From Octopus vulgaris (Eukaryota), in contig OX597826.1 in assembly GCA_951406725.2 (NCBI GenBank), positions 49,042,001 through 49,106,000 on the forward strand: 64,000 nucleotides of DNA. The letters are read 5' to 3'. Of the stretch, positions 2,386 to 61,924 are shown one piece after another. Under the pieces are notes generated by a model. The model was given only the letters and a program-made list of their open reading frames with translations. It was not told the DNA's origin and did not search any database. Numbering within the stretch: the stretch's first letter is position 1; each line of letters begins with the position of its first letter. A program made the translations under genes and the position numbers.

Positions 2386-2561
2386 CAAAATAAGCAACAC
2401 GATATCCAGAGGTAATGCAGTACGATCGTTTCAAGCGACTCCACTTAATTGAACAATTCAATCATTACATCAATTTAAATGCAGAGCAATCCTCAGATGC
2501 ATATGAAGTCACTTGAAAAGATCATACTGCATTGCCTCTGGATATCCTGTTGCTTATTTTG
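2386..2561. mobile_element. Fold-back PLE-like element with hammerhead-like motif on minus strand
   Basis: Inverted arms 2386-2440 and 2507-2561. Minus strand reads tgcat-CTGAGGA-long stem II-GAAA-CGATCG-T-A-ctgca. Related copy at 18468-18584. Confidence 0.65.
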
Positions 2562-3607
2562 TTTATAATATATATATATGAAATGAATACCAGTTGAACA
2601 CTAGGGTCAATGTAATCAACTTACCCCATTCCCAAACTTGTTGGCCTTGAGCCAAAATTTGAGACCATTATTATTACAGTTATGTGCAATATATATTAGT
2701 TTCAATCTTGGTGTTTTGACTTTGCCTCAACACCACCACCACCGTATATATATCTATATACACTTACATTACATTTCTTTCATTTCTTTTATATGTTTCA
2801 GCCCAAAGGTGGTGGCCATGCTGGAATATATATATATATATATATATATATATATATATATACATGTATATACATATATACGTATACACACACATGTGCA
2901 CACTCACATACACATGAGACGTGTTGAGAGGTGCATATATTCATGCATCCACCATACAACTTAATAATCATAATAATCATAATAATAATAATAATAATAA
3001 TCCTTTCTACTATAGGCACAAGGCATGAAACTTGAGGGGAGGGGACTAGTTCAATACATTGATCCCAGTGTTTAACCGGTACTTATTTTATCGACCCCGA
3101 AAAGATGAAAGTTAAGGTTGACTTTGTTGGAATTTGAACTCAGAATGCCGGAAGAAATGCCGTTAAACATTTCATCCTGGAAGCTAATGATTCTGCTAGG
3201 ATTGTTTCTTACTTTGATCTTTGGGAATGAGGGGACATTACCAGGACAAGATAGAAAAAAAAATTTGAAAACTTAGGGTGGTTACTCAGAACCAAGACCA
3301 ATCGATAAAAGCCATCACAAAACATCAACAATATAAAAGGGAAATGATATGAAGCATTACAAACAGGGGTGCAGATTTGTGAGCAGTGCCATTTTAATCG
3401 CATGGACACACTGAGCAGCTGCCTAAGGGCTTCAAATATTTAGGGGCCCAATTGTAATCTAAGTATGTTGTGACTTACTGTCAATCAGTAAATACCACAG
3501 GGCGAAGTGCATTGATTTACACAGTGCCTTTATATACGACTATGCTGCGAAAACTGCTTGGCCTGTAAGGGATCAATGGTGGGGGGACCCCAAAGGTCTT
3601 TGATTAA

Positions 3608-3829
3608 CCCTTTAGCATTCAGACCACTTTGTCAAGTGTAATGCTCATTTATTCAAATAATTTTGAATCAACCATGTATTATCTTGTAGTTTCAAGATTT
3701 TAATGATATGATTGCTTATCTTTACAATAACATTGTAGGGTGTGTGTGAAAGGTCAAATCTGGTTAGCTTGAGCATAAAAGAGGCAGAATATATCAGAAT
3801 ATATATTGGCTGTTTTGAGTGCTAAGGGG
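3608..3829. mobile_element. piggyBac-like MITE
   Basis: TTAA|CCCTTTAGCATTCA ... TGAGTGCTAAGGGG|TTGA: CCC-terminal inverted repeats with a TTAA-like target site. Confidence 0.7.
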
Positions 3830-5084
3830 TTGATTTTAATGTTAAGGCAAAGTGTTCCCTCTTCTGACAGTGTTATTTGGGCCATGTAAAACAATAACAA
3901 TAGCAACAACTACAACAACAACAAGTATACAATAGTTGTGGTAACTAACCATTGAGTAAATGAAGAAGCAGGTATACAGGTGTTTAATGTCAGAAATAAC
4001 AGCCATATTGACTCAAATTACACATAGGCTACTGTATTAGAGGAAGGACACACTAGGTTGTGTGGTATTGGGTATTCTGAAGCAGGAAAAGGAAGACAGT
4101 TTTAAAATGGCTTTGATGATGGATAAAATGGATCAGGGCTAAACAGCAACAACAATTACACTAATAATAACTTTGACACTACCAACAATAAAAGCAACAA
4201 CAACAATAATCGTTATGGAAGAGGAGAAAGAATGGGAGAAAGAAAGAAAGAAAGAAAGAAAGAAAGAGAGGAAGGAAGGAATGGAGGGAGGGAGGGGGAG
4301 GGAAGGAAGGGAAAAAGGGTGAAAGGACAAAAGAAAAGGGAAAGAGGCAAGAAAGAAAAAGGTGAGAGAAGGAAAGAAGAGAAGAAAGAAATTAAGAAAG
4401 AAAGAAAAGGGGCAAAAGAAAGAAAGAAAGAATAAAAGAAAATGAGCGAGAGAGAATAAAAGAAAAGGAATAAAACATACAATAAAAGAATTTAAAGAAA
4501 GAAAGAAAGAAAAAAGAAAGAAAGAAAAAGAAAGAAAGAAAGAAAGAAGAAAAAAGAAAGAAAGAAAGACAGGAAAAAGAAAGAAAGGAAAAAGAAAAAA
4601 GAAAGAAAGAAAGAAAGTAAAAAAGAAAGAAAGAAAAGCTAATTATGATTCATAAGTGTCAGAATAACATAAAAACAATAACGACAACAGCAAAAACAAT
4701 AATCACAACAACAACAATAATAACAGCAAACGATACTAATAATAACAACAATAATGGTAATAAAAAAAAAGAAAACATATTGGAAAGTCTTTGTGTAGTT
4801 TTTGTCTTTGTAATATTTGTGTAGCCTGTTCTTGCAAATGTTCCAGTGATAAGTTTCCAATGGACTTTGAGAGAATGATTGTGAAAACACTTTTGTTTGT
4901 ATTAGTAAACAGGTTGTTTAACAACACAGAAAGCACATTTTTTTAATTTCTGCATGAGTAAGCAGGTTGTTTCAAATTCTATATAGGTGCTGGCCTAATT
5001 GTGTGGTTAAGAAGATTGCTTCCCAACCATGTGAATTTTTAGGTTCAATCCTACCGCATGGCACCATGGGCAAGTGTATTCTAA

Positions 5085-5500
5085 AAGGGTAAAGACCCCC
5101 TTCGGTCATGAATGACCATGGGGGTTATGCCTAGAAAGTTGCCCTCCGAGGCACAAGTCCAGACAAGGTTGTTTATGGAAACCAGTAGTCACCCATGCAT
5201 ATTAACCTTTTGGGTTCAATCCTACCGCATGGCACCTTGGGCAAGTGTATTCTAAAAGGATAAAGACCCCCTTCAATCATGAATGACCATGGGGTTACGC
5301 CAAAAAAGTTACCCTCCGAGGCACAAGTCCAGGCAAGGTTGTTCATGAAAGACCGGTAATTGCCCATGCATATCAACCTCTCCTCTCCATGCCACAGATG
5401 TTATCCAAGGGAAAGATAAAGGCCGATACAGCTTGCCACCAGTGATGTCGCTACTCATTTCCACAGCTGAGTGAACTGGAAGAACATAGAATAAAGTACA
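5085..5500 (-). mobile_element. SINE family G inserted into a family A head, with tandem duplication
   Basis: Homologous to the plus-strand copy at 14742-15080 (catggtcattcatgacc...tttaccct tail). Confidence 0.7.
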
Positions 5501-5504
5501 TTAT

Positions 5505-60267: not shown

Positions 60268-60850
60268 GGCGCAGGTGCGGCTGTGTGGTAAGAAGCTTGC
60301 TTCCCAGCCACACGGTTCCGGGTTCAGTCTCACAGCGTTGCATCTTGAGCAGGTGTCTTCTACTATAGCCTCGAACGAACTGACCAAAGGCTTGTAAGTG
60401 GATTTGGTAGACGGAATCTGAAAGAAGTCCGTCACATATACACACATACATACATGCATACATATATATATACATACATACATACATACATACATACATA
60501 CATACATGCATACATACATATATACATACATACATACTATACATATGCACACACACACACACATACACACACATATATATGCACACACACATATATATAT
60601 ATGCACTCACGCGATGGGCTATATACACATGTCGGTGTGAGTTTGTATCTTTGTGTCAGTGTTTGTACCCCACCACCGCTTAAAAACTGGTCTTGGTTTG
60701 TTGACGTCCTTGGCCGACAGAATAAGTAACTGGCTTAAAAACAGCGGGAAAAAACTACTGGCGGTCGATTCGTTCGATTAAAAACCCTTGAAGGCGATGC
60801 TCCAGCATGGCCACCGTACAATAACATAAACAAGTGAAACAAAAGATAAA
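60268..60850 (+). mobile_element. SINE family A with expanded internal microsatellite
   Basis: Head 60268-60433, (CATA/CA)n expansion, tail to 60850. Confidence 0.85.
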
Positions 60851-61384
60851 ATATATAAGGCGCAGGGCATTGTTTCGACCGGGGGTTTATAATGTTGCTT
60901 CGACGACCCTACCAGTACTGTAATCCCTCGATTATCGCGGGTGTTACGTTCCAAACCCACTCACCCCGCGATATGTGAAAATCCGCGATGTAGAAACAGT
61001 ACTCTACACATTAACTCTTCTACTTGTTTCAGTCATTTGACTGCGGCCATGCTGGAGCACCGCCTTTAGTCGAACAAATCGACTTCAGGACTTATTCTTT
61101 GTAAGCCTACTATTTATTCTATCTGTAGGTTATAAATATTCACTATTTGACGAAGGTCTAATAATACCAAGGACTTTCCAGAAAGATCCTATTTTTCTAT
61201 CCAGGGATATATATATATACAGTTAATCCAAACGAGAAAACACAAAGAGAAAACACAACAACGCGATGGCGTGGAACAAATATAGTATTATTGGACGCTC
61301 AGGGGGTTTAACGTTTCGAGCGGAGCTCTTCGTCGGAAACATAGGAGAAGGAAAGATCCAGATATATATATATATATATATATA

Positions 61385-61620
61385 TAAACTTAGATTTTAA
61401 AAATTAGATATGTTTCGACCAAAGATTGGTTCAGGCCATGCCTAACTTAATCGCACCACCAGACAGGATTATCTAAATCCTTTTAAAGTCAAATTTTGTT
61501 TATGGTCCATTTAAGTAGTGAGTTCTTGTTGAGTGAGTTGTATCCAGGTATGGGTGGCTTATCTGGTATTCCTTGAAGAAATCTGTCCAGAAATCTTTAA
61601 TCAGTTTTGGGGCAATGTTT
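61385..61620 (-). pseudogene. 3' end of a CR1/L2-group LINE
   Basis: Minus strand translates NIAPKLIK then RFLDRFLQGIPDKPPIPGYNSLNKNSLLKW, resembling the LD-FL--IPD-P---GY---NSL C-terminus of invertebrate CR1-like ORF2; short 3' UTR follows. Confidence 0.7.
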
Positions 61621-61876
61621 ATTTATTTATTTATTTAAAAAAAAAACCTCGATTCAATAACACCGTTTACAAACTCTATGCTTGGAATACCAATTTTAAA
61701 TACTATTGGAACTTATTCACAAAGTACGGGAATCTTATATGTAAACCATTCTGCCTAAATAATGGAACTGAAGTTAAAATATCCCTGCATATCTCACGTC
61801 TATTTCCATTCCTCCACTTCACTTTCTGTTTCATATCTTATCTAGAATAACTATTGCCTAACCATTCTCTCACACC

Positions 61877-61924
61877 GTCTCCGATGAGGGGATATATAAA
61901 ATATCCCGGAAACAGCTGTAAGAC
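61877..61924 (+). ncRNA. Type I hammerhead-like motif
   Basis: GTCT-CCGATGA-G-GGGATA(tataaaa)TATCCC-G-GAAA-CAGCTG-T-A-AGAC; 8 nt palindromic ACAGCTGT stem III. Confidence 0.65.

What the first reader, a model, noticed from the sequence alone, without database searches (positions are those of the whole stretch)
2386..61924. About two dozen minimal hammerhead-ribozyme-like motifs hidden in microsatellite-flanked short elements
Seen: many short islands between microsatellite tracts share one architecture despite unrelated sequence: stem I, NYGWNNA-type core, stem II, GAAA, very short and usually palindromic stem III, UH, stem I. Positions: 2415(-), 5554(-), 6349, 11305(-), 11418, 18468, 18643, 18879(-), 26611, 26796, 28226(-), 28433, 40496(-), 40721, 40956, 41155, 47026(-), 50148(-), 50526, 54262(-), 58455, 58919, 61306(-), 61877; several are degenerate. 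Known: Penelope-like retroelements carry minimal type I hammerheads with palindromic stem III that cleave as dimers. Inference: the genome is pervaded by diverse non-autonomous, (TA)n-associated, ribozyme-bearing PLE derivatives, here about one per 3 kb. I do not know whether this has been described for this organism.
Basis: partly seen in the sequence, partly recalled or inferred. Interest (0 to 1): 0.88.

Follow-up and report, generated by a model that had tools for sequence, protein, structure and literature searches.

The report
Penelope retroelement ends carrying hammerhead ribozymes
These short repeats are left-over ends of about ten families of Penelope-type jumping genes, each carrying a predicted self-cutting RNA fold of an already known kind; the new detail is that in one family the copies carry an extra G at a predicted transcription start, which suggests they were copied from the capped, uncut front end of the element's own RNA.

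Summary
The motifs are real. All 24 sites show hammerhead-like pieces; 22 fall into 10 repeat families, 10 pass a strict type I descriptor (shuffles 0.2 ± 0.4), 12 are damaged or marginal family copies, and 2 (18879, 58919) stay unconfirmed. One per 3 kb holds for this window; a 400-kb genome sample gives about one per 12 kb.

Four families (11 sites) were traced to Penelope-like RT/GIY-YIG reading frames, so they are terminal-repeat (pLTR) stubs of protein-coding elements, not shown to be separate non-autonomous families. This matches Cervera and de la Peña 2014, and this scan has found it before in this and other genomes.

Two additions. In the G3-C8 family most copies begin at or just after a TATA(-30)/initiator site, with a non-genomic G (80 of 100 and 24 of 28; about 22-26% expected). 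That points to reverse transcription of capped, sense RNA with an intact ribozyme. A second family (15,703 exact copies) has U at core position 6 in 96 of 100 while position 7 varies freely. Cleavage is untested.

The parts
2421..2496 (-). Family E hammerhead, long stem II, damaged; inverted partial arm at about 2514-2570
   Evidence: intact relative in L109
5554..5589 (-). Family F hammerhead, decayed core and stem I
   Evidence: intact relative in L032
6353..6379 (+). Family A hammerhead, intact (core CCGACGA)
11315..11365 (-). Family G hammerhead, intact; left arm of a head-to-head pair
11427..11477 (+). Family G hammerhead, stem I mismatch; right arm of the pair
18473..18548 (+). Family E hammerhead, decayed
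18652..18681 (+). Family H hammerhead with a G8C point change
   Evidence: intact relative in L105
18883..18945 (-). Unconfirmed: U3-A8-like core with G at 9 and an 8-bp hairpin; no relative found
26613..26640 (+). Family H hammerhead, decayed
26799..26827 (+). Family I fragment: G3-C8 core and stem II, GAAA and 3' half lost
28226..28252 (-). Family A relative, 3' strand of stem I lost
28440..28476 (+). Family I hammerhead, intact, swapped G3-C8 core, 7-bp stem I; element about 28427-28562 between (TA)n tracts
40499..40530 (-). Family J hammerhead, U3-A8 core, 3-bp stem I; inverted arm
40724..40755 (+). Family J hammerhead, U3-A8 core, 3-bp stem I; direct arm
40961..40988 (+). Family B hammerhead, stems intact, U at position 6
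41159..41188 (+). Family K hammerhead with G17; element starts at about 41118, at the initiator-like site of related coding elements
47030..47056 (-). Family A hammerhead, intact
50152..50191 (-). Family D hammerhead, 7-bp stem II, 8-nt palindrome in stem III
50530..50556 (+). Family A hammerhead, CG to TG change in stem III
54267..54294 (-). Family B hammerhead, stem II mismatch
58459..58486 (+). Family B hammerhead, CG to TG change in stem III
58919..58948 (+). Unconfirmed: canonical core and 4-bp stem II, AGAA for GAAA, no stem I, no second match in the genome search
61310..61336 (-). Family A hammerhead, intact
61881..61920 (+). Family D hammerhead, 7-bp stem II, 8-nt palindrome in stem III

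Best explanation
The motifs are minimal type I hammerhead folds in the terminal repeats of Penelope-like retroelements, four families of which are shown here to be protein-coding, and the short copies are likely inert by-products of insertion: the element's enzyme likely nicks (TA)n DNA, starts reverse transcription at a fixed site about 90-150 nt past the ribozyme's predicted cut, and copies back across the intact ribozyme. Shown: linkage to RT/GIY-YIG frames (families A, B, I, K), TA targets, head-to-head arms, two fixed 3' ends about 59 nt apart in family I, and a pile-up of family I 5' ends at a TATA(-30)/initiator site with an extra G. Inferred: that G is the copied 5' cap, so these copies are cDNAs of the first 145-205 nt of a capped sense transcript made from the repeat's own promoter; longer copies come from priming at the downstream repeat and stopping early. 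The ribozyme would cut only as a dimer or with protein help, and is probably not needed for insertion, which would explain why weak cores (U6, G17, G3-C8) spread to thousands of copies.
For: Family I: 487-aa RT+GIY-YIG frame upstream of the motif with a mirrored arm (L189; RT and EN motifs align to L134 at 22-25%; nearest Atlas clusters with a family carry RVT_1, GIY-YIG or HTH_animal); 14 of 30 copies extend upstream and 4 of 30 reach the ORF. Family B: 22 of 30 upstream-selected loci have a sense ORF hit, 17 of 30 both ORF and motif. Family A: 4 of 30 upstream-selected loci reach the ORF end. Family K: 67-73% like the 3' ends of L134, L142, L145. Full-length copies of a further family have 456-bp (99.3%) and 504-bp (100%) direct repeats, each with a U3-A8 core, around a 781-aa RVT_1+GIY-YIG frame. 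Extra G: 364 of 852 copies have a non-C letter before the +1 A; 80 of the first 100 are G, 22% expected; 24 of 28 at a second start 3 nt upstream, 26% expected; what lies upstream is unrelated flank or an inverted arm. In 42 copies not chosen on their 5' end, 41 stop within 14 nt upstream of the anchor; G in 4 of 4 at +1 and 6 of 26 at comparable other stops. Internal RT starts, a tail between two starts, and insertion without cleavage are reported in vitro (PMC11167929). An extra G from the cap is reported for full-length L1 (PMC11702581).
Against: The G signature is shown for one family only; in families A, B and H the same test was not clear, being confounded by subfamily differences and ungapped alignment. 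Of 25 G cases inspected, 5 could be templated by the inverted arm and about 3 more by target duplication or rearranged arms. No RNA 5' end was observed: all listed runs are contigs and none is on record as RNA. Full-length copies include sequence upstream of the TATA box, which a transcript starting at +1 cannot supply, so another template route must also exist. Six families were not traced to an ORF. No cleavage data.
Confidence: 0.72

Rival explanations
1. The short elements are non-autonomous families that are transcribed on their own and mobilised in trans by Penelope proteins. A weaker form: ORF-less stubs that keep the promoter supply the capped RNA.
For: Short copies far outnumber coding ones (41 of 42 unselected family I copies stop near the start). 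Family B has 15,703 exact copies. Six families were not traced to ORFs. pLTRs are reported to act in trans (PMC3846280 passages).
Against: All four families walked upstream join an ORF. Copies that start at +1 lack the TATA box, and their upstream flanks are unrelated or inverted arms, with no shared head.
Confidence: 0.15
2. The ribozyme cuts multimeric RNA into units that are circularised, and the short copies are random 5' truncations of cDNA made on the circle.
For: Proposed by Cervera and de la Peña (PMC4209133). Every copy spans the cut site, and full-length copies are longer than one unit. Paired changes across 24 families keep the fold.
Against: A circle has no 5' end, so it does not explain the stop at the initiator or the extra G. 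It may still hold for the full-length copies.
Confidence: 0.07
3. The family I boundary is a 3' splice site (branch-point-like CTAAC, pyrimidine tract, AG) and the G is the end of a spliced exon.
For: The sequence fits a splice acceptor. An intron ends at stem I in Drosophila Penelope.
Against: No shared exon lies upstream. G appears at two starts 3 nt apart. A TATA-like box sits exactly 30 nt upstream. No splice joint in contigs (weak).
Confidence: 0.04
4. The motifs are chance matches in low-complexity DNA.
For: Two-mismatch cores reach 2-2.6 hits in shuffles. 58919 and 18879 may be chance or old decay.
Against: 10 against 0.2 hits in the window and 21 against 0-3 out of sample. Families of 852 and 15,703 exact copies with 0 in the reversed control.
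Confidence: 0.02

Closest known systems
Minimal type I hammerheads in pLTRs of metazoan Penelope-like elements (Cervera and de la Peña 2014, PMC4209133; read parts 1-2 of 4)
   Same: Short stem I, extra nucleotide after A9, mostly G10.1-C11.1, palindromic stem III, U3-A8 variant, many families, mostly solitary copies, nearby pairs on opposite strands, thousands per genome.
   Different: Whole families with U6 or G3-C8 cores; higher copy numbers (15,703 exact copies in one family; 2,000-9,000 motifs per genome there); the 5'-end signature is not in the parts read.
Anole Poseidon PAc mechanism (Frangieh et al. 2024, PMC11167929; read parts 1-2 of 4)
   Same: Two internal RT starts that define an optional tail, AT-rich targets, uncut RNA as template, C3G/G8C partly active.
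   Different: That work is in vitro and in another clade; the tail here is about 59 nt against 30-40; here the evidence is genomic and concerns the RNA's 5' end.
Endonuclease-bearing PLEs with a zinc-finger-like linker, Neptune and Nematis (Craig et al. 2021, PMC8557442, passages; Arkhipova et al. 2013, PMC3846280, passages)
   Same: C-terminal GIY-YIG, Cx2-5CxxC linker, pLTRs with TATA and initiator-like motifs, inverted 5' arms, microsatellite targets.
   Different: Clade not placed on a tree here. PMC3846280 favours an antisense template and leaves an unspliced sense template open; the extra G argues for sense, capped RNA.
Animal non-LTR retrozymes (bioRxiv 10.64898/2026.07.22.740005, read part 1 of 5 and passages; PMC7229834, search listing only)
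   Same: Type I hammerheads and a proposed PLE origin.
   Different: Retrozymes are tandem arrays without an ORF; the window copies are dispersed and four families join ORFs.
Extra 5' G of full-length LINE-1 insertions (PMC11702581, one passage)
   Same: Non-genomic G at the 5' junction, read as the copied cap.
   Different: Here it marks 145-205-nt copies of a leader in a Penelope-like element.
Small hammerhead variants of PLEs that cleave as dimers (Lünse et al., RNA Biol; not held, title seen in a reference list only)
   Same: Same class of motif, by its title.
   Different: Could not be read; it may already describe some of these core variants.

Membership tests
Minimal type I hammerhead (min-HHR) | Stem I - core - stem II - GAAA - stem III - UH - stem I, above chance | tested here: met
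   10 of 24 sites pass; shuffles 0.2 ± 0.4; 12 more are damaged or marginal copies of the same families
Minimal type I hammerhead (min-HHR) | Palindromic stem III too short to fold alone | tested here: met
   0-3 monomer pairs; self-complementary 4-9-mers in 8 of 10, CG to TG decay in 2
Minimal type I hammerhead (min-HHR) | G10.1-C11.1 and free position 7 (not required by the descriptor) | tested here: met
   G-C in 17 of 24 family representatives; position 7 is A 9, T 8, C 7
Minimal type I hammerhead (min-HHR) | Invariant A6 | tested here: not met
   Family B: U6 in 96 of 100 listed copies; met in the other families
Minimal type I hammerhead (min-HHR) | Self-cleavage at UH as a dimer | not testable with these tools
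   Needs a cleavage assay; only contigs were available
Endonuclease-bearing Penelope-like element | RT followed by C-terminal GIY-YIG upstream of the motif, same strand | tested here: met
   Families A, B, I, K; for A and B only the EN end of the frame was seen
Endonuclease-bearing Penelope-like element | The same for families D, E, F, G, H, J | not tested
Endonuclease-bearing Penelope-like element | Direct terminal repeats (pLTRs), each with a hammerhead | tested here: inconclusive
   Met for L126 and L129, a family not among the window sites; no full-length copy of A, B, I or K was retrieved
Endonuclease-bearing Penelope-like element | Inverted 5' arm, optional tail, microsatellite target | tested here: met
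   Arms; two 3' ends about 59 nt apart; 21 of 24 near (TA)n
Neptune or Nematis clade | Cx2-5CxxC linker and phylogenetic placement | tested here: inconclusive
   Linker seen in all four linked frames; no tree with named references
Non-LTR retrozyme | Tandem units, each with a hammerhead, no ORF | tested here: not met
   Window copies are dispersed and four families join ORFs
Non-autonomous PLE family | Own amplification without a coding relative | tested here: inconclusive
   Not met for A, B, I, K; untested for six families; cis or trans templates not distinguished

The most novel reading that the evidence does not exclude
Penelope-like elements mass-produce short stubs by priming at the first internal site of their own capped, sense, uncut mRNA and copying back to the cap. 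The genome then holds a nucleotide-level record of PLE transcription starts and template polarity, and because cutting is dispensable for insertion, families with non-standard cores (U6 in more than 15,000 copies, G3-C8, G17) flourish as natural, possibly protein-assisted or metal-dependent, hammerhead variants.
Probability: 0.5. Interest if true: 0.62.

Novelty: new variant of a known kind. Interest (0 to 1): 0.42.

Why it matters
The headline observation is a known class of element in one more animal, and this scan has seen it before. The added value is mechanistic. How Penelope-like elements use their RNA is open: sense or antisense template, cut or uncut, linear or circular. An extra G at a predicted start site in hundreds of genomic copies is in vivo evidence for a capped, sense, uncut template, and it can be tested in any genome rich in these elements. 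The family with fixed U6 and free position 7 is a large natural test of how strict the hammerhead core is. The stubs also make up a sizeable, mostly inert part of this genome: roughly 2 x 10^5 copies for ten families, extrapolated from 400 kb.

Tried and rejected
Rfam: no match at gathering scores; at E up to 10 the 150 rows shown of 489 were simple-repeat artefacts and no hammerhead was among them. tblastn with six PLE protein queries found no ORF remnant in the window itself. Two family B copies 5.8 kb apart were a segmental duplication, not two pLTRs. One search fetched the wrong place for one locus (L146) and one search was aimed at wrong coordinates; neither was used. Sequencing runs: no RNA holder listed; contigs laid on a full-length element and on the family I leader showed no start or end cluster and no clear splice joint, which is uninformative. 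The cap-G test on families A, B, H was not clear. A type II descriptor gave 3 hits against 2 in the reversed control, so the permuted half-cores are not simple type II ribozymes. Pfam did not recognise the L189, L289 or L129 upstream frames. Cross-family covariation was counted on descriptor hits, so pairing is built in and is not independent evidence. Literature searches that found no prior report: extra G in PLEs, A6U, natural G3-C8, hammerheads with octopus; the words ribozyme and hammerhead do not occur in the main text of one octopus repeat annotation (PMC13282606, passages). Lünse et al. was not held, and no supplements of any paper were read; either may already list these variants.
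Full report
Setting. The window is G000:C13:49042001-49106000 of a 2.8-Gb genome in 227 contigs. It is dense in microsatellites and short repeats. The repeat landscape looks octopus-like; that rests on my recall and on earlier notes of this scan, and I did not determine the organism.

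Observation. All 24 positions carry hammerhead-like pieces on the stated strand. A first descriptor gave 4 perfect-core hits against 0 in 60 local dinucleotide shuffles, and 7 against 0.2-0.4 with one mismatch. A second descriptor, allowing any Watson-Crick 3-8 pair and U6, gave 10 hits against 0.2 ± 0.4. I wrote it after seeing the motifs, so the fair test is out of sample: 21 hits in 40 stretches of 10 kb against 0-3 in shuffles, 7 of them in one tandem array. By homology 22 of 24 sites belong to 10 families: A (6349, 47026, 50526, 61306, relative 28226), B (40956, 54262, 58455), D (50148, 61877), E (2415, 18468), F (5554), G (11305, 11418), H (18643, 26611), I (26796, 28433), J (40496, 40721), K (41155). 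Ten copies are intact; twelve are damaged or marginal, with better relatives elsewhere. 58919 has no second match in a genome search and 18879 has no relative in 1.57 Mb held. 21 of 24 sites lie within 200 nt of (TA)5, against 38% of random positions; the same families occur 32 times in 400 kb, about one per 12 kb against one per 2.9 kb here. Among 24 well-scoring families in all loci held (28 clusters, 4 low-scoring ones left out), G10.1-C11.1 occurs in 17, position 7 varies, and the 3-8 pair is C-G in 20, U-A in 3, G-C in 1. Stem III forms 0-3 pairs alone but is self-complementary, as expected for dimer-dependent motifs.

What they belong to. A GIY-YIG search gave 148 matches among 150 scored of 6,136 candidates, many in long frames. 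These include full-length elements with a 781-aa RVT_1+GIY-YIG frame between 456-504-bp direct repeats, each with a U3-A8 core. Four window families were traced to such frames. K is 67-73% like the 3' ends of L134, L142 and L145. I sits about 1 kb behind a 487-aa RT+GIY-YIG frame with a mirrored arm; 14 of 30 copies extend upstream and 4 reach the ORF. A joins an EN-bearing frame in 4 of 30 upstream-selected loci. B does so in 22 of 30, 17 with the motif also present. All four frames have the Cx2-5CxxC linker described for Neptune and Nematis (PMC8557442, passages). Families D-H and J were not traced, and no ORF remnant lies in the window. So 11 of 24 sites are pLTR stubs of coding elements, and 'non-autonomous' is not shown.

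How the short copies arise. Family I copies have two fixed 3' ends about 59 nt apart, usually running into (TA)n, and often a head-to-head arm. This fits the two internal RT starts and optional tail reported in vitro, where uncut RNA was the template and ribozyme mutants still inserted (PMC11167929, parts 1-2). Their 5' ends pile up at or just after TC-A-GATG, 30 nt behind a TATA-like box: 41 of 42 copies not chosen on their 5' end stop within 14 nt upstream of the anchor. The source has C (T in one subfamily) before this A. Of 852 exact copies, 364 have another letter, and 80 of the first 100 listed are G, with 11 T and 9 A, against 22% expected. At a second start 3 nt upstream 24 of 28 are G, and 11 of 12 inspected are true boundaries. 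The DNA further upstream is unrelated flank or an inverted arm; of 25 G cases inspected about 8 could be explained by arm or target sequence. At other stop positions G is 6 of 26. An extra G is the described mark of a copied cap in full-length L1 (PMC11702581, one passage). I infer that these stubs are cDNAs of the capped leader of the element's sense RNA, with the ribozyme uncut. PMC3846280 (passages) favoured an antisense template and left a sense template open. TATA-to-initiator spacings of 28-32 nt also appear in L134 and L129, and the window's K copy begins at the matching site. Limits: the G test was not clear in A, B and H; no RNA end was observed; full-length copies include DNA upstream of the TATA box, so a second route (read-through, template jump or circle) must exist; whether the template came from coding copies or ORF-less stubs is not resolved.

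Core variants. Family B has 15,703 exact matches to a 29-nt pattern and 0 in the reversed control. Position 6 is U in 96 of the first 100, and among those position 7 is T 41, A 25, C 19, G 11. A natural A6C core is slow in Mg2+ and better in Mn2+ (PMC3088659 and PMC7151607, passages); I found no A6U report. Family I has G3-C8 throughout, the laboratory rescue pair; earlier notes of this scan already record it. J has U3-A8, which is published. Window copies are solitary or on opposite strands, so they are unlikely to cut in place.

Comparison and verdict. The class is known: solitary minimal hammerheads from truncated PLEs, in thousands per genome (PMC4209133, parts 1-2). I found no paper on them in octopus, but the scan has noted them repeatedly. 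I found neither the extra-G signature nor the U6 family in papers or earlier notes, with the caveat that Lünse et al. and all supplements were unseen. Verdict: real, mostly known, with one testable mechanistic clue and unusual cores. Interest 0.42.

Noticed in passing
window 25520-25575(+), 29500-29545(-), 52735-52790(+), 18010-18065(+): Three further TA-flanked families carry hammerhead half-cores in permuted order (GAAA about 25-30 nt before CUGA(A/U)GA). They have relatives in the loci held but do not fit a type II descriptor. Craig 2021 mentions half-cores in Naiad elements, and earlier notes of this scan describe a re-wired form.
   Followed up: partly
L061 2300-4520 (G000:C1 near 20.00 Mb); similar motif in L155: Tandem array of about 357-bp units, five one way and two inverted, each with a canonical type I hammerhead: a non-LTR retrozyme-like element.
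   Followed up: no
L126 929-6171, L129 743-5959: Apparently intact recent full-length PLEs: identical or near-identical pLTRs with CCAAT/CRE-like repeats, TATA box, possible splice donor and a U3-A8 core, an upstream extra ORF, and a 781-aa RT-EN frame; 17 of the 148 matches lie in 781-aa frames.
   Followed up: partly
window 24030-24920(+): 3' end of an L1/Tx1-like LINE with a 299-aa open frame and a zinc-knuckle-like motif (family name from recall).
   Followed up: no
window 20649-20889: Six perfect copies of a 40-bp unit.
   Followed up: no
window 41159-41188 and L145: G at the cut position 17 is shared with a coding relative, so it is inherited, not local decay. G17 impairs minimal hammerheads (PMC3884650, search listing only).
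   Followed up: partly
L340 near 1460-1512: The first 12 nt of the family I leader, with its extra G, appear twice, each after the same 12-nt flank: possibly an aborted and restarted insertion.
   Followed up: no
window 43500-44130: Near-tandem duplications of a 220-250-bp segment with simple repeats.
   Followed up: no
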